IMG/VR virus record: IMGVR_UViG_2802428982_000005
Location: 19,927 to 83,926 of that record
Strand: one strand, 5' to 3'
Length of the DNA stretch: 64,000 nucleotides
Source: a virus
Taxonomy: Duplodnaviria; Heunggongvirae; Uroviricota; Caudoviricetes
Shown: piece after piece, positions 2,813 to 62,820 of the stretch
Layout: each line of letters opens with the position of its first letter
Numbering within the stretch: position 1 is the first letter of the stretch
The notes under the pieces: generated by a model
The model's input: only the letters and a program-made list of their open reading frames with translations
The model's database searches: none
What the model was told of the DNA's origin: nothing
Program-made: the position numbers and the translations under genes

Positions 2813-4215
2813 TAGACCGGCATGACCTCGACGTACAGCTGGGCGTTGGCCTTGTCGAACAGGTAGGCACCGGCGAGGCCGTCGTTGTACAGGTTGACGT
2901 AGACGGTGCCCTGGTTGCCGGTGTGGTTGGCAGGCACCAGGGCGTAGGTGTTGTCTGGCGTGATGGCCATGGTGGGGTCGGACGGTGTGGACGCGTGGGG
3001 CGACATGTGCGCCCACTGGGAGGTGTTGCCGAAGCCGCGGGCAATGAGTTGGCCGGAGGTGGGGTGTCCCAGCCGGACCTCGCAGCCGATGATGAGCGGG
3101 TCCTGATCCAGCTCCACGCCGGTCGCTTTGATTTTCCCGAACACAATCGGCTTCCACGGGAACGGTTGGGCGGGAATGGCAAAGGACCCGATGGGTGCCC
3201 GGGTGGAGAAGCCCAGGAAGTTGGTGAACGCTGCCTCGGGCACCGTGAACGGCCTAGGCAGGATCGACCCAATGGACATAGGCCGCCACTTACCGGATGC
3301 CCCGATGTTTTCGTCGAAGCCCAGAACCTGGAGGTGTTGTGGCGGGGTGGACATGTCGACGTCCGGGGCCTGCCCGAGGCTGGCGGCAACGCCTTGCGGG
3401 CCGCGCGGGACCTTCAAGTACAGGCGGCACGACGGCGCGTACGGCGACCCTGTCTGGTGGACGTAGGAGTCTTGGGCGCCCTCCGGCGGGAGAAGCTCGA
3501 CGCTCCAGCTGATCTGGGGCACCGGCCCCGGGGGGCCTTCCGATCCCATCATCAGGATGCGGTACTCCGTGCCGAACCAGATGTAGGCACGAGACCCGAT
3601 GAGGTTGGTGACGCCCTCCTGCTCGGTTGTCACGACCACGGAGGAGCTGGTGCCGCCGGTGGGCGTGCCGGTCATCTGCGGCTGCCCGATACCGGCCTTG
3701 GAACCGGCGAAGGTCACCGTGTAGGGGCCGCCGGGGTTGCCGACGACCTCGACGTCGCCGGTCGAGACGTTCGGCAGGGCAACCAGCGCGTCCTCGAACG
3801 CCTGAGCGGTGGCGTTACCGGCAATGGATGAGGTCGGCTGGCCGTCGTACGCGATGGTGAAGGAGGTGGGGTTGCCGTTGAGTGTCACCGTCTGGACCTC
3901 GTTGACGGTGGCGTAGTGGTTCATGATCCAGTACTTGCCGATGTCTTCCTCGATGTCCTGGAGGTTGGTCGGCAGGTCCTCGGGGTCATCGATCATCGAC
4001 TTCTGGAGGCGCAGGGCGAAGGCGTTGGTACCGGCCGGACCCTGTGGCCCCATGAGAGCGGGAACCACCAAAGTTGCCTGATCGCCTTGGATTTCCATGG
4101 TGACCGCGTACTGGTCCGGTGTCGCGCCGTCGGACACCACGGCGTAGATGTGGGTGTTCGTCAGCAGGGACTTGAGGTACACCATCAGGCCGATGGGTGG
4201 TACCGGTGCGGTCAT
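2812..4215 (-). CDS. minor tail protein with collagen-like Gly-X-Y stretch (467 aa)
   Basis: GPQGPAG / GPPGPVP repeats; position in the tail module directly downstream of the tape measure block. Confidence 0.65.
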   Translation of the reverse strand: MTAPVPPIGLMVYLKSLLTNTHIYAVVSDGATPDQYAVTMEIQGDQATLVVPALMGPQGPAGTNAFALRLQKSMIDDPEDLPTNLQDIEEDIGKYWIMNHYATVNEVQTVTLNGNPTSFTIAYDGQPTSSIAGNATAQAFEDALVALPNVSTGDVEVVGNPGGPYTVTFAGSKAGIGQPQMTGTPTGGTSSSVVVTTEQEGVTNLIGSRAYIWFGTEYRILMMGSEGPPGPVPQISWSVELLPPEGAQDSYVHQTGSPYAPSCRLYLKVPRGPQGVAASLGQAPDVDMSTPPQHLQVLGFDENIGASGKWRPMSIGSILPRPFTVPEAAFTNFLGFSTRAPIGSFAIPAQPFPWKPIVFGKIKATGVELDQDPLIIGCEVRLGHPTSGQLIARGFGNTSQWAHMSPHASTPSDPTMAITPDNTYALVPANHTGNQGTVYVNLYNDGLAGAYLFDKANAQLYVEVMPV

Positions 4216-36499: not shown

Positions 36500-37300
36500 T
36501 ATTGGGCGGGTGATGTGAACGTGTGTGTGCTGACCGGGATTTCGCTTTTACACCCGCACTGGGTGCGGGCGACAGGGCTTGAACCTGCATTACCAATTGA
36601 GTGATAACCGACCGAGCGTCCTGTTCACATCGGGTTGTCTGTCGTGCGAGCGCGTAGGTGGTGTGGGCGTGTGGGGTGCTGACCGGCGTATGTGGACAAT
36701 TGCCTCTACCAATTGGGCTACACCCCGCGAGCGAGGTGGTGGGGCTCGAACCCACACCTGACTGTTTTGGTAACCGACCTGCGTCCTGTCCACACCGCCT
36801 GCGCGCGTGCGTCTGCTGGTGTTTGAGGTGGTGTGAGCGTGTGGGTGTCGTCCGGGTTTTAGCGCTCTAGGCCACTGAGCTACAACCACTTTCGTGGTTG
36901 ACGGGATTCGAACCCGCGTCTCTCTCGGGAAAGGAGATAACCGAACGAAGTCCTGTTCACACCTTGTTATGTATGGAGTTGTGTTGGGTGATGGGGCGAA
37001 CGTGTGTGTGCTGACCGGGGTTTAGCGCTCTGCCAACTGAGCTACAGCCGGGGGCTGGCTGGCGGGACTCGAACCCGCGACCTCTCCATTAGCAAGTGGT
37101 AACCGACCTGCGTCCTGCTCGCACCATCTGGTGTCTATGTAGTTGTGGTCTGGGGAACGACGTGAACGTGGTTGGCGCTGGGCGGGTTTGGCTCCATTTC
37201 CCCGCTTGGCTCGGGGCGTTCTAACTTGAACTACGGGGGCGTACCCCGAGATAACCGACCTGCATCCTGTTCACGTCGTCCGCTGTTTTGTTGTCTCAAA
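36500..37300 (-). ncRNA. tandem array of about five ~165-nt tRNA-like / Y-RNA-like repeat units
   Basis: On the minus strand: D-arms GCUCAGUUGGCAGAGC, GCUCAGUGGCCUAGAGC, GCCCAAUUGGUAGAGGC; T-arms GCGGGUUCGAGUCCCGC, GCGGGUUCGAAUCCCGU, GUGGGUUCGAGCCCCAC, CAGGUUCAAGCCCUG; acceptor-like stem capped by a loop (CAACCAC-GAAAG-GUGGUUG); conserved 25-nt motif GUGAACAGGACGCAGGUCGGUUAUC (plus 36603, 36771, 36936, 37098, 37250); CA-rich spacers; exact 22-nt repeat gaacgtgtgtgtgctgaccggg at 36517 and 36998. Confidence 0.6.
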
Positions 37301-37304
37301 ACGA

Positions 37305-37322
37305 AGCTATACCGCGGTATAG
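37305..37322 (-). terminator. perfect 18-bp palindrome gctataccgcggtatagc followed on the minus strand by UUCGUUUUGAG; terminator or protein-binding site
   Basis: Between the secreted-protein gene (stop 37378) and the Y-RNA-like array. Confidence 0.45.
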
Positions 37323-37377
37323 CGGTGCGGCAACAGGATTGGGGCTTGGCTGTATAGCCGCTCGGTAGCCGCGACCA

Positions 37378-37716
37378 TCACCGTCCGGTACCAGCCCCTC
37401 CACTCGCCGAGGACCCACCGCTACCGGCAGACCCGCTACCAGCGCTGTTACCTCCAGTTTCGCCCGCGCCAGGACTTGCCGGAGCTGTAGGTGGATGGTG
37501 CTGGCCCTCGGGGCATTCCGGGTCCTCCGGGGGCTTGTATCCGCCGCCGCCTGCTGGCGTGAAGGGTGCCGGTCGGGCACCCAGGCAGGTCTTGGCGTCT
37601 GTCGCGGCGTACAGGCAACGGTCGGGGAACGCGGAAGCGGTGGCAGTTGGGAGTGCCGTTAGGGCGGCTATGGCGGCGCCCATGACGGAAATACGTTTTA
37701 CATAAAGGCTTTTCAT
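37378..37716 (-). CDS. small secreted Gly/Ser/Pro-rich protein with Sec signal peptide (~112 aa)
   Basis: MKSLYVKRISVMGAAIAALTALPTATASA|F signal peptide (AxA site); low-GC 5' region; start ATG 37716 (ORF-track 37752). Confidence 0.5.
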   Translation of the reverse strand: MKSLYVKRISVMGAAIAALTALPTATASAFPDRCLYAATDAKTCLGARPAPFTPAGGGGYKPPEDPECPEGQHHPPTAPASPGAGETGGNSAGSGSAGSGGSSASGGAGTGR

Positions 37717-37800
37717 GACTCGTAACGTATACAGAGCTATACACATAAGCAAGGCCGCTACGGCTTGTTCTTACGTATAGTGAACTATACATTCTGAGCC

Positions 37801-38052
37801 ATGGCAAGAGTGACACTCACAGCGAAAGCGCGGATGCGCGCCAACAAGCGCCGCGTCATGGCAGCACTCCGCAACGCCGGTATGCCGCTCCTCGTCGACA
37901 ACCGCGACGGCATCTGGCGCCTCTACTTCATAGGCACCGACGACACCGGTGTAGAGCTGGAGCTGATCCTGGTCCCACACGCCACCCAGGACTGGACCTG
38001 GGTATGTATCCACGCCATGCCCACCAAGTACCGGAAAGGAGGGGCACAATGA
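37801..38052 (+). CDS. small protein, possible BrnT/RelE-superfamily-like toxin (83 aa); first gene of the only plus-strand cassette inside the prophage
   Basis: C-terminal IGTDDTGVELELILVPHATQDWTWVCIHAMPTKYRK resembles the BrnT/DUF497 C-terminus; opposite orientation to all flanking genes. Confidence 0.35.
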   Translation: MARVTLTAKARMRANKRRVMAALRNAGMPLLVDNRDGIWRLYFIGTDDTGVELELILVPHATQDWTWVCIHAMPTKYRKGGAQ

Positions 38053-38252
38053 CCCTCATGAGCAGTCACAGCGAAGCCGACCTCAAGCGCCTCACCTTCG
38101 GCGATGACCTGGTCGTCGACGACATCGACCTCGACAAGGAAGAGTTCCTTGTCGGCGACGGAGTCCGGCTGACCAACGAAGCGGCCGAGAAGCTCGCAGC
38201 CGAAACCCTAGCCGAGGTCGAACGGCGAAACATCCAGGCAGAGAAAGGCTAG
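38049..38252 (+). CDS. small acidic protein, possible antitoxin-like partner (67 aa)
   Basis: ATG 38049 overlaps the upstream stop (ATGA); acidic; RLTNEAAEKLAAETLAEVERR helix. Confidence 0.35.
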   Translation: MTLMSSHSEADLKRLTFGDDLVVDDIDLDKEEFLVGDGVRLTNEAAEKLAAETLAEVERRNIQAEKG

Positions 38253-62336: not shown

Positions 62337-62645
62337 ATGCGCAATATGACTGCTGCATTCGAATCGGGAAATATCCCCCCGAGCCGCCTGCGACACCGCT
62401 TACGGATCGCACGCGAGGAGGCGCAACTAGATCAGCACCAACTAGCCGAACTCATGGGAGTCGGCCGGTCGGTGGTTGGCAATTGCGAGAGCGGACGGAC
62501 GGTGCCGAAGAAGATCGTCGTCAACGCTTGGGCATTGGCCTGCGGCGTGCCAGCGAGTTGGCTAGCCACGGGTGAAGGTGAGCAGCCGCCGGAAGATGAC
62601 GGCCCTATGGTGCGCCCGAAGGGATTCGAACCCCTAACCTTCTGA
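62337..62645 (+). CDS. XRE/cI-like immunity repressor whose ORF ends inside the host tRNA-Arg (start 62337 or 62346; ORF-track TTG 62310)
   Basis: HTH LDQHQLAELMGVGRSVVGNCESGRTVP; last ~12 codons (MVRPKGFEPLTF) are encoded by the tRNA-Arg 3' half; stop TGA 62643-62645. Confidence 0.65.
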   Translation: MRNMTAAFESGNIPPSRLRHRLRIAREEAQLDQHQLAELMGVGRSVVGNCESGRTVPKKIVVNAWALACGVPASWLATGEGEQPPEDDGPMVRPKGFEPLTF

Positions 62646-62683
62646 TCCGTAGTCAGATGCTCTATCCGTTGAGCTACGGGCGC
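62608..62683 (-). tRNA. tRNA-Arg (anticodon ACG), 76 nt with encoded CCA; prophage attachment junction at its 3' end
   Basis: Minus strand GCGCCCGUAGCUCAACGGAUAGAGCAUCUGACUACGGAUCAGAAGGUUAGGGGUUCGAAUCCCUUCGGGCGCACCA; cloverleaf with anticodon loop CUACGGA. Confidence 0.85.
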
Positions 62684-62731
62684 TTACTATTCAATTGTTG
62701 CAGGTCAACAGGTTTGGCCTGCAGACCGACG

Positions 62732-62820
62732 CGGAGGCGAGAGGATTTGAACCTCCGGTCCCCCGTAAAGGGGACAACTCATTAGCAGTGAGTCCCATTC
62801 GGCCGCTCTGGCACGCCTCC
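62732..62820 (-). tRNA. tRNA-Ser (anticodon GCU), long variable arm
   Basis: Minus strand GGAGGCGUGCCAGAGCGGCCGAAUGGGACUCACUGCUAAUGAGUUGUCCCCUUUACGGGGGACCGGAGGUUCAAAUCCUCUCGCCUCCG. Confidence 0.8.

What the first reader, a model, noticed from the sequence alone, without database searches (positions are those of the whole stretch)
36500..37300. The repeat units look like circularly permuted tRNAs: T-arm, then loop-capped acceptor stem, then D-arm
Reading the minus strand, each well-preserved unit runs: conserved 25-nt motif GUGAACAGGACGCAGGUCGGUUAUC, then T-arm (e.g. GCGGGUUCGAAUCCCGU), then the acceptor 3' strand CAACCAC, a GAAAG loop and the acceptor 5' strand GUGGUUG, then UA, then D-arm GCUCAGUGGCCUAGAGC, then a conserved AAAACCCGG and a CA-rich spacer. 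A 3' half placed before the 5' half, with the acceptor stem closed by a loop, is the topology reported for YrlA-type bacterial Y RNAs. In those, the termini sit where the anticodon stem would be and form the Ro-binding helix. A four-to-five-copy array with covarying stems (CAGCC/GGCUG in another unit) and an exact 22-nt repeat (gaacgtgtgtgtgctgaccggg at 36517 and 36998) points to recent duplication and selection on structure. I could not identify by hand the 3' strand that pairs with the conserved 5' motif, so the Ro-binding helix is unconfirmed.
Basis: seen in the sequence. Interest (0 to 1): 0.8.

Follow-up and report, generated by a model that had tools for sequence, protein, structure and literature searches.

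The report
Six Y RNA genes beside prophage Ro60
The repeats are six tandem genes for Y RNAs, three of them complete permuted tRNA mimics, lying directly upstream of the Ro60 protein gene of a Mycobacterium abscessus prophage: a known kind of RNA, but an unusually large, unannotated set.

Summary
On the minus strand, 36408-37280 holds six tandem units. Units 2-4 carry a full permuted tRNA-like module (T arm, loop-closed acceptor stem, D arm). Unit 5 has no D arm, and units 1 and 6 have no tRNA-like module. Across 22 units from diverged loci, 96% of cells pair against 34-43% when partners are slid, and 19 of 32 pairs have compensatory changes. All seven acceptor pairs covary and the universal tRNA positions are invariant. 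A model built from these finds exactly six hits in the 64 kb window. In 31 related loci every hit lies upstream of the Ro60 gene on its strand, 1-7 per locus. This matches the YrlA/YrlB Y RNAs of Chen et al. 2014, although Rfam's YrlA model scores below threshold. Two corrections: there are six units, not four to five, and they are old paralogues, not recent duplicates. Verdict: new member of a known kind.

The parts
37158..37280 (-). Unit 1: Y RNA-like unit with a Ro-binding frame but no tRNA-like insert. Outer stem GACGACGUGAAC (37269-37280) / GUUCACGUCG (37158-37167); motif GGUCGGUUAUC (37250-37260); degenerate inner 3' strand CCGCCCAGC (37177-37185), with U.C where other units have the invariant U.G.
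   Evidence: Model R1 gives 40.6 bits, E 3e-8, and this unit was not in the training set. Fold z-score -2.3. Coordinates. This unit type occurs only in close relatives, so its insert could not be tested by covariation.
36992..37128 (-). Unit 2: full YrlA-type Y RNA. Outer stem 37117-37128 / 36992-37001; motif 37098-37108; V arm CCACUUGCUAAUGG 37086-37099; T arm 37062-37078; acceptor-like hairpin 37045-37061; D arm 37027-37042; inner 3' strand CCGGUCAGC 37010-37018.
   Evidence: R1 136.8 bits. Rfam YrlA 38.9 bits, E 1e-6, over the full model 1-114. The published M. smegmatis YrlA 5' probe target maps here. 81-89% identical to counterparts in diverged loci.
36829..36966 (-). Unit 3: full YrlA-type Y RNA. 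Outer stem 36955-36963 / 36830-36838; motif GUUCGGUUAUC 36936-36946; V 36921-36937; T arm 36901-36917; 7-bp acceptor stem closed by GAAA 36883-36900; D arm 36864-36880; inner 3' strand CCGGACGA 36848-36855.
   Evidence: R1 124.6 bits. Rfam YrlA 28.8 bits. The minimum-energy fold equals the proposed structure, z-score -3.3, 0/200 shuffles. The inner helix UUCGUUCGG/CCGGACGA covaries with GCAGGUCGG/CCGGUCAGC of unit 2.
36659..36799 (-). Unit 4: full YrlA-type Y RNA. Outer stem 36788-36796 / 36660-36668; motif 36769-36779; T arm GUGGGUUCGAGCCCCAC 36739-36755; 7-bp acceptor stem closed by CUCG 36721-36738; D arm GCCCAAUUGGUAGAGGC 36702-36718; inner 3' strand 36678-36686.
   Evidence: R1 93.5 bits. 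Rfam YrlA 28.5 bits. It carries the compensatory A15:U48 Levitt pair where 20 of 22 units have G15:C48.
36511..36634 (-). Unit 5: Y RNA with a T arm (36572-36588) and a 9-bp acceptor-like hairpin (36551-36571) but no D arm. Outer stem 36623-36631 / 36512-36520; motif 36603-36613; inner 3' strand 36529-36537.
   Evidence: R1 77.4 bits, not in the training set. 86-90% identical to the same-position unit in L011/L013, whose Rsr is about 75% identical. Fold z-score -2.8.
36408..36490 (-). Unit 6: minimal (YrlB-like) Y RNA with the Ro-binding frame and a short insert. Outer stem GGCACGAGC 36479-36487 / GUUCGCGCC 36409-36417; motif AGUCGGUUACC 36460-36470; inner 3' strand CCGGCCGC 36427-36434.
   Evidence: R1 38.4 bits, not in the training set. 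A minimal unit is the last before rsr in most related loci with more than one unit (L011, L013, L015, L017-L021, L028).
34666..36381 (-). rsr: Ro60 orthologue, 571 aa, GTG start at 36381, RBS AAGGAG at 36389-36394, 27 nt after unit 6. Predicted protein partner of the six RNAs.
   Evidence: Pfam TROVE 1.2e-46 and vWA_Ro60 4.3e-63. PDB 2NVO (D. radiodurans Rsr) 3.3e-104 and 1YVP (Xenopus Ro60) 3.9e-100. Annotated 'Ro-like RNA binding protein' in the 98%-identical prophages.
37306..37323 (-). Perfect palindrome GCUAUACCGCGGUAUAGC followed by UUCGUUUUGA, 25 nt upstream of unit 1. It is either a terminator of the upstream gene or an operator, and it marks the 5' boundary of the array's transcription unit.
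   Evidence: Terminator-like hit, though the count of such sites in the region is no higher than in shuffles. The GCTATAC half-site occurs 7 times against 2.06 expected, with 4 of the 7 at 37306-37742. Its role was not tested.

Best explanation
The region is an array of six Y RNA genes of the bacterial YrlA/YrlB class. They are co-oriented with, and immediately 5' of, the Ro60 (rsr) gene of a cluster-MabK-like Mycobacterium abscessus prophage.

Shown here by sequence, covariation and synteny:
- Each unit pairs its own 5' and 3' ends into an outer stem of about 9 bp, an internal loop, and an inner helix (NNNN[G/A]UCGG / CCGG[U]NNNN with an invariant U.G) followed by UUAYC.
- Between the strands sits a variable module. 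In units 2-4 it is a circularly permuted tRNA body: V arm, T arm, acceptor stem closed by a tetraloop, then D arm. In unit 5 the D arm is missing. Units 1 and 6 have other short hairpins.

Inferred from the characterised systems (D. radiodurans Yrn1, Salmonella and M. smegmatis YrlA/YrlB, Thermus phage phiLo Yrl1/2):
- The array is transcribed with rsr as one precursor, probably early in lytic growth.
- It is cut in the 20-29-nt A/C-rich linkers.
- Each RNA is bound on its terminal helix by the Rsr ring.
- The RNP then uses the distal module to tether Rsr to another factor (PNPase in the known cases) or to gate RNA access to the Rsr cavity.
- The tRNA-like modules are expected to be substrates of tRNA enzymes. 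[quoted passage not shown]
For: Partner gene: the Ro60/Rsr orthologue starts 27 nt downstream on the same strand.

Structure:
- RNAalifold on 22 units from the window and 15 diverged loci recovers the outer stem, inner helix, T arm, 7-bp acceptor stem and D arm. 19 of 32 pairs have double changes.
- 96.2% of cells are paired against 34-43% when partners are slid, and 0/500 shuffles reach the observed values.
- The Ro-binding frame holds over 45 distinct units of all types: 84.9% paired against 27-39% slid.
- U8, A14, G18G19, G53, U54, U55, C56, A58 and C61 are invariant in 22/22 units, and unit 4 has a compensatory A15:U48.

Specificity:
- Model R1 gives exactly six hits in 64 kb with filters off, including three units not used to build it.
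- All 113 hits in 27 loci lie on the rsr strand within about 1.1 kb upstream of rsr.
- Untrained phages BearBQ, FuzzBuster, Magritte and SM23 score 97-109 bits, each just upstream of a Ro-like or 'RNA-binding protein' gene.

Link to validated RNAs:
- The Rfam YrlA model is the top Rfam hit for units 2-4 (E 1e-6 to 1e-3).
- The target of the published M. smegmatis YrlA 5' probe matches unit 2 orthologues at 21/23 (PMC4201824).
- The literature definition is met: within 4 kb of rsr, same strand, V/T/AS/D order.
Against: - No expression, processing or binding data exist for this locus. The prophage cluster is reported as largely silent in lysogens (PMC8092301).
- Rfam's YrlA gathering score is not reached (38.9 against 69 bits).
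- The literal GNCGAA(N)G motif of Chen et al. is absent from all six units.
- Folding energy alone does not separate units 2, 4 and 6 from shuffled sequence (z +0.9, -0.5, +0.6).
- No sigma-70-like promoter was found.
- Unit 1 has a weakened inner helix and no diverged relatives, so it could be decaying.
- The effector that the tRNA-like module engages is unknown even in the model organisms.
Confidence: 0.9

Rival explanations
1. The repeats are a tandem array of ordinary or decayed tRNA genes read out of register. The T arm and 3' acceptor strand of one tRNA, followed by the 5' acceptor strand and D arm of the next, would imitate a permuted tRNA. Chen et al. 2014 name this artefact explicitly.
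For: ARAGORN calls an odd 'tRNA-Thr(tgt)' on unit 2 of L001/L007 and a 'tRNA-Arg(tct)' on the first unit of L019. GenBank MW584167 annotates a tRNA-Thr there. Rfam's tRNA model gives 28.1 bits (threshold 29) across units 2-3. My own model gives 20 bits on the real tRNA-Ser/tRNA-Arg pair at 62649-62778, which shows the artefact exists.
Against: Each 5' acceptor strand pairs with the 3' strand of its own unit (6, 7, 7, 7 of 7), 3-4 nt away across a tetraloop, and not with that of the next unit (4, 4, 5). All 7 of these intra-unit pairs covary across loci. No anticodon arm follows the D arm; the Ro helix does. ARAGORN finds no tRNA in the window's array. The Rfam tRNA hit needs a 100-nt insertion and has mismatched acceptor pairs. 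The ARAGORN calls have anticodons at positions 38-39 and disappear in near-identical sequences.
Confidence: 0.02
2. The array is a long structured 5' leader of the rsr mRNA, acting in cis on stability, translation or autoregulation by Rsr binding its own leader. It would not be a set of separately released small RNAs.
For: There is no terminator between unit 6 and rsr. The RBS lies 14 nt after unit 6. No internal promoters were detected. Co-transcription with rsr is also what the best explanation assumes.
Against: In M. smegmatis, the homologous YrlA and YrlB are made from one precursor with rsr and accumulate as discrete Rsr-bound RNAs (PMC4201824). Each unit closes on itself with its own covarying terminal stem, separated by unstructured A/C-rich linkers. 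That is the design of excised modules. Copy number varies from 1 to 7 without change to the rsr start region.
Confidence: 0.05
3. Only some units are functional Y RNAs. Units 1, 5 and 6, which lack a complete tRNA-like module, are decaying duplicates with no role.
For: Unit 1 has U.C in place of the otherwise invariant U.G and two mismatches in its inner helix. It is found only in close relatives. Units 1 and 6 score lowest. Close relatives gain or lose a unit, 6 against 7.
Against: The unit-5 type (T arm, long acceptor hairpin, no D arm) and the minimal unit-6 type keep their positions in loci whose Rsr is only 62-76% identical. Their helices covary there, for example L020 UUUCGGUCGG/CCGGUCGAAG and L018 UUCCAGUCGG/CCGGUUGGAG. 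Validated Y RNAs without a full tRNA module exist: Salmonella and M. smegmatis YrlB (PMC4201824).
Confidence: 0.15

Closest known systems
Mycobacterium smegmatis YrlA and YrlB (Chen et al. 2014, RNA 20:1715; PMC4201824)
   Same: They lie upstream of rsr on the same strand. YrlA has the order Ro-binding 5' strand, V, T, acceptor-like stem, D, then 3' strand. The 7-bp acceptor stem matches units 3 and 4. A smaller second Y RNA sits between YrlA and rsr. The published YrlA 5' probe target (UUACCACUUCUAAUGGAAUGGUC) matches unit 2 orthologues at 21/23.
   Different: M. smegmatis has two Y RNAs, and this prophage has six of at least four structural types. M. smegmatis YrlB has a T arm, and unit 6 here does not. 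[quoted passage not shown]
Salmonella Typhimurium YrlA (Rfam RF02553; crystal structure 6CU1, Wang et al. 2018)
   Same: It has the same permuted tRNA topology and the same conserved T and D arm sequences. It is the best Rfam match for units 2-4.
   Different: The window units score only 28-39 bits against a gathering score of 69. The 5' motif is GUCGGUUAYC, not GNCGAA(N)G. Here both strands of the Ro-binding helix are recognisable and covary, whereas Chen et al. report only the 5' strand as recognisable in Salmonella and M. smegmatis. There is no rtcBA operon context.
Mycobacteriophage YrlA-like RNAs (e.g. phage ET08; 22 phages in Chen et al. 2014)
   Same: These are phage-encoded Ro60 genes with YrlA-like RNA close by. 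Cluster C phages (ET08, Alice, Sebata) share the T-to-D core with unit 2 at 74-76% identity.
   Different: The text of that paper describes no array of this size. It reports 355 YrlAs in 276 genomes, about 1.3 per genome. I could not read its supplementary tables, so prior listing of multi-copy phage loci cannot be excluded.
Thermus phage phiLo Ro60 with Yrl1 and Yrl2 (NAR 2025; PMC12135203)
   Same: A phage Ro60 gene is preceded by Y RNA-like genes. These bind the phage Ro60 and, together with host PNPase, form a ternary complex. This is the only experimentally studied phage case and is the model for the mechanism inferred here.
   Different: It has two RNAs with a CGAA motif, and the paper's text never uses the term 'tRNA-like'. 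The Ro60 is very diverged. The organism is a thermophilic lytic phage, not an actinobacterial prophage.
Deinococcus radiodurans Yrn1/Yrn2 and metazoan Y RNAs (RF00019)
   Same: These are modular RNAs whose paired 5'/3' ends form the Ro60-binding helix. Several paralogous Y RNAs occur per genome (four in human; up to four small RNAs near D. radiodurans rsr).
   Different: Rfam Y_RNA gave no hit even at E <= 10. The T/D order differs in Yrn1. Metazoan Y RNAs have no tRNA-like module.

Membership tests
YrlA-type bacterial Y RNA (definition of Chen et al. 2014) | Encoded within 4 kb of a Ro60/TROVE gene, on the same strand | tested here: met
   The array at 36408-37280 (-) ends 27 nt before rsr at 34666-36381 (-). 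The same holds for all 113 hits in 27 related loci.
YrlA-type bacterial Y RNA (definition of Chen et al. 2014) | Stem formed by pairing of the 5' and 3' ends that carries the Ro60-binding site | tested here: met
   The outer stem and inner helix are predicted by RNAalifold. Over 45 distinct units, 84.9% of cells pair against 27-39% slid, and 10 of 19 pairs have double changes.
YrlA-type bacterial Y RNA (definition of Chen et al. 2014) | GNCGAA(N0-1)G motif near the 5' end | tested here: inconclusive
   The literal pattern is absent from all six units. They carry [G/U]UCGGUUAYC instead, which Rfam's YrlA model aligns to its cggCgaA positions. The validated M. smegmatis YrlA probe target begins UUACCAC, identical to what follows GUCGG in unit 2. 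The accepted actinobacterial members therefore probably share this variant, but I could not read the M. smegmatis sequence itself.
YrlA-type bacterial Y RNA (definition of Chen et al. 2014) | Nearly invariant T and D stem-loops with tRNA-universal nucleotides, T before D | tested here: met
   Met for units 2-4: U8, A14, G18G19, G53, U54, U55, C56, A58 and C61 are invariant in 22/22 aligned units, and the 15:48 pair is G:C in 20 and A:U in unit 4. Unit 5 has the T arm only. Units 1 and 6 have neither, so they are YrlB-like rather than YrlA.
YrlA-type bacterial Y RNA (definition of Chen et al. 2014) | Acceptor-like stem-loop (AS) between T and D, variable in sequence but conserved in pairing | tested here: met
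   7 of 7 pairs have changes on both sides and 95.4% of cells pair. Pairing is within the unit.
YrlA-type bacterial Y RNA (definition of Chen et al. 2014) | Bound and stabilised by Rsr; modified or processed by tRNA enzymes (TruB, DusA, RNase P, CCA-adding enzyme) | not testable with these tools
   This needs immunoprecipitation, Northern blots and modification mapping. Only the 7-bp acceptor stems of units 3 and 4, the RNase P determinant named in PMC4201824, can be read from the sequence.
Rfam RF02553 (YrlA) | Score at or above the curated gathering threshold (69 bits) | tested here: not met
   The best scores are 38.9, 28.8 and 28.5 bits (E 1e-6, 9e-4, 1e-3 in a 1.3-kb search), and there is no hit at the gathering threshold. 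By Rfam's own criterion these are not members. They are the top-scoring family and match the model end to end.
tRNA gene (RF00005 / ARAGORN) | Contiguous cloverleaf with an acceptor stem formed by the two ends and an anticodon arm between the D and T arms | tested here: not met
   ARAGORN finds none in the array. The Rfam tRNA hit of 28.1 bits (threshold 29) is a chimera of units 2 and 3 with a 100-nt insert. The order is T, acceptor, D.
Metazoan-type Y RNA (RF00019) | Match to the Y_RNA covariance model | tested here: not met
   No hit at E <= 10 in 36200-37500.

The most novel reading that the evidence does not exclude
The expansion to 6-7 structurally different Y RNAs in M. abscessus prophages could be a deliberate panel of tRNA decoys or adaptors, not simple redundancy. 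After RNase P nicking and CCA addition, each would present a different tRNA-like body: class-I D arms here, class-II-like D arms with an extra hairpin in relatives such as L011 unit 1 and L019 unit 3. The phage Ro60 RNP could then intercept host tRNA-targeting defence nucleases or toxins, or recruit Ro60/PNPase to particular damaged tRNAs during lytic growth. Against a panel of specific identities: within one unit type the acceptor stem sequence drifts freely between loci while pairing is kept. The closing loops are often stable GAAA or UUCG tetraloops. Both point to selection for a closed hairpin rather than for a particular tRNA identity.
Probability: 0.1. Interest if true: 0.7.

Novelty: new member of a known kind. 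Interest (0 to 1): 0.33.

Why it matters
Y RNAs with tRNA-like modules next to Ro60 genes are established, in phages as well, so the class is not new. This locus adds three things.

1. It is one of the largest Y RNA sets seen next to a single Ro60 gene. There are six units here and seven in sister prophages, against one or two in the bacterial loci and most lytic phages sampled. The structural types are conserved in position. That makes it a natural system for asking why Ro60 needs several Y RNAs and what the tRNA-like module binds.

2. Both strands of the Ro-binding helix are recognisable and covary here, including an invariant U.G. This gives a testable binding-site model for actinobacterial Rsr.

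3. There is a practical annotation point. These RNAs are unannotated in the deposited prophage and phage genomes I inspected, or are mis-called as tRNA genes (prophiGD43A-5 'tRNA-Thr', Magritte 'tRNA-Arg', SM23 'tRNA-Asn'). This inflates phage tRNA counts.

The host is a clinically important pathogen for which phage therapy is being developed.

Tried and rejected
- Rfam at gathering threshold finds nothing in the array. Only the permissive scan shows YrlA below threshold.
- Single-sequence folding energy is an unreliable discriminator here. Units 2, 4 and 6 fold no better than shuffles, and the minimum-energy fold of unit 4 is not the conserved structure. I relied on covariation instead.
- Re-permutation test: each unit was rebuilt as acceptor-5' + D + a borrowed anticodon arm + V + T + acceptor-3' + CCA. 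All three are called tRNA by ARAGORN, and T-arm shuffles abolish the call in 7 of 9 cases. Most constructs with a shuffled D arm or a swapped acceptor strand are still called, so the test has low specificity and I gave it little weight.
- The tandem-tRNA artefact was considered and rejected.
- 'Recent duplication' was rejected. The exact 22-nt repeat is the conserved inner-helix 3' strand, internal loop and start of the outer 3' strand of units 5 and 2.
- The sigma-70 promoter scan found none. Mycobacterial promoters are poorly covered by that consensus, so this says little.
- The supplementary tables of Chen et al. 2014 are not held, and two reviews were not held. I could not check whether M. 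abscessus prophage loci or arrays of this size were already listed.
- Ungapped matching of the M. smegmatis YrlB and YrlA-3' probe targets gave no convincing hit in the window. A first version of that script timed out.
- Pfam on neighbouring ORFs gave no RNA-repair or nuclease partner, no RtcB and no PNPase. It found only DUF7736 and a weak HTH.
Full report
**What is there**

Read on the minus strand, window 36408-37280 contains six tandem units of 83-141 nt separated by 20-29-nt A/C-rich, G-poor linkers. The last unit ends 27 nt before a GTG start codon at 36381, which is preceded by the RBS AAGGAG at 36389-36394. This opens a 571-aa ORF (34666-36381, minus strand). The ORF has a TROVE domain (1.2e-46) and a Ro60-type vWA domain (4.3e-63). 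It matches D. radiodurans Rsr (2NVO, 3.3e-104) and Xenopus and human Ro60 (1YVP and 9NEN, about 4e-100).

The window is about 98% identical to the M. abscessus prophages prophiT37-1 and prophiGD43A-5 of cluster MabK. There the gene is annotated 'Ro-like RNA binding protein' and the array is not annotated, apart from one 'tRNA-Thr'.

**Checking the observation**

- The exact 22-nt repeat is at 36517 and 36998.
- The 25-nt '5' motif' is a consensus with three copies at 1-3 mismatches. Its invariant core is [G/U]UCGGUUAYC, present in all six units.
- The acceptor loop of unit 3 is GAAA, not GAAAG.
- There are six units, not four to five.

**The Ro-binding helix exists**

In each unit the 5' end pairs with the 3' end. 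Examples are unit 1 GACGACGUGAAC/GUUCACGUCG, unit 3 GGUGUGAAC/GCUCACACC, unit 4 GGUGUGGAC/GCCCACACC and unit 5 GAUGUGAAC/GUUCACAUC. An internal loop follows, and then a second helix that uses the conserved motif: unit 2 GCAGGUCGG/CCGGUCAGC and unit 3 UUCGUUCGG/CCGGACGA.

I built fixed-length composites of the four strands for 45 distinct units of every type, from the window's relatives and diverged loci.

- 84.9% of cells form standard pairs, against 27-39% when the 3' partners are slid by 1-3 columns.
- 10 of 19 pairs have changes on both sides.
- No shuffle out of 500 reaches the observed covariation score. The two measures that count pairs or pair types do not exceed the shuffles (190 and 241 of 500).
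- Two features stand out: a nearly invariant U.G next to the invariant CGG/CCG, and a recurrent A.C mismatch in the outer stem.

**The permuted tRNA module**

I aligned 22 full units: three from the window and 19 from 15 other loci whose Rsr is 62-98% identical. RNAalifold was given no structure. It returned the outer stem, inner helix, T arm, a 7-bp stem between the T and D arms, and the D arm. 19 of 32 pairs have compensatory changes.

- 96.2% of cells pair, against 34-43% slid. All five measures exceed 500 of 500 shuffles.
- All seven acceptor pairs covary.
- The universal tRNA positions U8, A14, G18G19, G53, U54, U55, C56, A58 and C61 are invariant in 22/22 units.
- The tertiary 15:48 pair is G:C in 20 units, A:U in window unit 4 (compensatory) and A:C in one unit.

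The caveat of the tool applies. The structure was derived from this alignment, which favours it over slid versions on the paired-cell measure. The count of double changes (19 against 5-9) and the per-helix results do not depend on that.

**Unit types in the window**

| Units | Content |
|---|---|
| 2, 3, 4 | V, T, acceptor and D arms |
| 5 | T arm and a 9-bp acceptor-like hairpin, no D arm |
| 1 and 6 | Ro-binding frame with other short hairpins (YrlB-like) |

A covariance model built from the 22 units (R1) was run over the whole window with filters off. It gives exactly six significant hits: 136.8, 124.6, 93.5, 77.4, 40.6 and 38.4 bits. Three of these (units 5, 1 and 6) were not in the training set. 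The next hit is 20 bits on the genuine tRNA-Ser/tRNA-Arg pair at 62.6-62.8 kb, and everything else is 14 bits or less.

**The main rival: tandem tRNAs read out of register**

Chen et al. 2014 warn of this artefact. It is excluded here for four reasons.

- Each 5' acceptor strand pairs with the 3' strand of its own unit (6, 7, 7, 7 of 7) across a 3-4-nt loop, not with that of the next unit (4, 4, 5).
- These intra-unit pairs covary.
- ARAGORN finds no tRNA in the window's array.
- The sub-threshold Rfam tRNA hit is a chimera with a 100-nt insertion.

ARAGORN does call odd tRNAs, with the anticodon at position 38-39, on unit 2 of some near-identical relatives. The reason is that the V arm (CCACUUGUAAUGG) looks like an anticodon loop. 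This explains the 'tRNA-Thr' in GenBank MW584167. The published tables list one tRNA for prophiGD43A-5 and none for prophiGD43B-2, a MabK prophage of the same length.

**Comparison with relatives**

In 31 related loci from IMG/VR, GTDB genomes and GenBank phages, every model hit lies on the rsr strand within about 1.1 kb upstream of rsr.

| Copies per locus | Loci |
|---|---|
| 1 | L027, phage FuzzBuster |
| 2 | Mycobacterium and actinobacterial MAG loci L024-L026; phages Sparky (L018), BearBQ (L028) and SM23 (L031; second hit only 21.8 bits); viral contigs L015, L016, L023 |
| 3 | Magritte |
| 4 | L017, L020, L021 |
| 5 | L011-L013 (Rsr about 75% identical), L019 |
| 6 | The window and most close relatives |
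| 7 | L007, L008, L010, which carry an extra unit between units 2 and 3 |

The types keep their order across loci. The unit-2 type is followed by others, and in most loci with more than one unit a minimal unit is last before rsr.

Within the window the units are only 54-74% identical to each other. Units 2 and 5, however, are 81-90% identical to their positional counterparts in loci whose Rsr is 63-76% identical. The array is therefore old and maintained, and it is not a product of recent duplication. The 22-nt identity between units 2 and 5 reflects constraint on the Ro-binding strand.

**Comparison with what is known**

The anatomy matches the YrlA class defined by Chen et al. 2014 (PMC4201824):

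- within 4 kb of rsr and on the same strand;
- a 5' Ro-binding motif;
- V, T, AS and D arms in that order;
- in M. smegmatis, a YrlA plus a smaller YrlB made from one precursor with rsr and bound by Rsr.

M. smegmatis YrlA, which has a 7-bp acceptor stem, is cleaved by RNase P and receives CCA. The target of their M. smegmatis YrlA 5' probe maps to unit 2. The match is 21/23 in L010 and L011, and one inserted base plus two substitutions in the window.

Two formal criteria fail. Rfam RF02553 is the best Rfam family for units 2-4 but scores 28-39 bits against a gathering score of 69. The literal GNCGAA(N)G motif is replaced by GUCGGUUAYC. I therefore file these units as YrlA/YrlB-class by the literature definition, and as outside Rfam's current threshold.

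That paper reports 355 YrlAs in 254 bacteria and 22 phages, so multi-copy loci are known. I found no text describing arrays of this size and no paper on Y RNAs in M. abscessus prophages. I could not read the supplementary tables.

**Mechanism**

*Shown:* structure, covariation and synteny.

*Inferred from the model systems:*

- Co-transcription with rsr. No terminator lies between them. A palindrome or terminator-like hairpin at 37306-37323 sits 25 nt before unit 1.
- Excision in the linkers.
- Binding of each RNA's terminal helix by the Rsr ring.
- Use of the distal module to tether Rsr to an effector, or to gate its cavity. This is as in D. radiodurans and Salmonella (Rsr-Y RNA-PNPase) and Thermus phage phiLo (phage Ro60 + Yrl + host PNPase; PMC12135203).

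The locus lies among early lytic genes, and MabK prophages are reported as mostly silent in lysogens (PMC8092301). Expression is therefore expected on induction rather than in the lysogen.

**Verdict**

The class is already known. The new content is the size and heterogeneity of the array, a well-supported two-strand model of the Ro-binding helix, and the annotation errors. Interest is modest.

Noticed in passing
L001 4220-4298 (GenBank MW584167 gene 51); L030 2487-2563 (OR553905 gene 117); L031 2485-2551 (PQ655446): Deposited phage genomes annotate 'tRNA-Thr(tgt)', 'tRNA-Arg(tct)' and 'tRNA-Asn' genes. Each overlaps the 5' two-thirds of a full-length Y RNA hit (139.5, 96.9 and 98.4 bits) just upstream of a Ro-like gene. 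They are most likely mis-called YrlA RNAs, because the V arm imitates an anticodon loop. ARAGORN reproduces the calls for L001/L007 and for L019.
   Followed up: yes
L007/L008/L010 3242-3388 versus window between 36967 and 36991; L004 3455-3579: Prophages more than 97% identical to the window carry a seventh unit between units 2 and 3. It is related to the third unit of L011/L013. L004 has a truncated third unit abutting the next. The array gains and loses units, presumably by recombination between them.
   Followed up: partly
L011 3233-3403, L013 3236-3403, L019 3659-3801, L020 3755-3894, L021 3758-3893: Some units in relatives have a D arm of the long, class-II tRNA style (GUGGCAGAGCGGCCUAAUGC, like tRNA-Ser/Leu/Tyr) followed by an extra hairpin. 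Different Y RNAs in one array may therefore imitate different tRNA classes. The window has none of this type.
   Followed up: no
window 37306-37323, 37352-37358, 37736-37742: There is a cluster of GCTATAC/GTATAGC half-sites upstream of the array, including a perfect 18-bp palindrome 25 nt before unit 1. The motif occurs 7 times in the window against 2.06 expected, and 4 of the 7 are here. It could be an operator for the Y RNA/rsr operon and the divergent toxin-antitoxin pair, or simply a terminator.
   Followed up: partly
window 37801-38052 (+) and 38004-38252 (+): A toxin-antitoxin pair is transcribed divergently from the array. It is annotated BrnT-like toxin and antitoxin in the 98%-identical prophages. 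Pfam gave no hit for either ORF here. An RNase-type toxin next to a Ro60/Y RNA locus may or may not be a coincidence.
   Followed up: no
L018 (phage Sparky) 2994-3552: Four ordinary tRNA genes (Ser, Pro, Trp, Tyr) lie directly upstream of Sparky's YrlA (3611-3749), YrlB-like unit (3759-3833) and rsr, all on one strand. This suggests tRNAs and Y RNAs share a precursor and its processing enzymes.
   Followed up: no
window 62608-62683 and 62731-62820 (-): These are two genuine tRNA genes (Arg-ACG, Ser-GCT). The Y RNA model scores 20 bits across the pair (62649-62778), a live example of the tandem-tRNA false positive. MabK prophages integrate at a tRNA 3' end, so these may mark the attachment site.
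   Followed up: no
All units; alignment A2 columns 7/45 and 20/32: The outer terminal stem carries a recurrent A.C mismatch (31 of 45 units; A-U or G-C in the window's units). The inner helix carries a nearly invariant U.G next to CGG/CCG. Both are candidates for specific Rsr contacts.
   Followed up: partly
window linkers 37129-37157 and 36967-36991; also linkers in L011, L019, L024, L025: The linkers share a loose ACAACU..CAUA motif (CACAACUACAUAGAC, CACAACUCCAUACAU, and GAUACAACUUCACAU in L011). It might be a processing site.
   Followed up: no
window 37378-37716 (-) and 33536-33922 (-): Upstream of the array is a 112-aa ORF with a hydrophobic N-terminus and a Gly/Ser-rich tail and no Pfam match. 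Downstream of rsr is a DUF7736 protein (6e-25). Neither suggests an RNA-repair partner such as RtcB.
   Followed up: no
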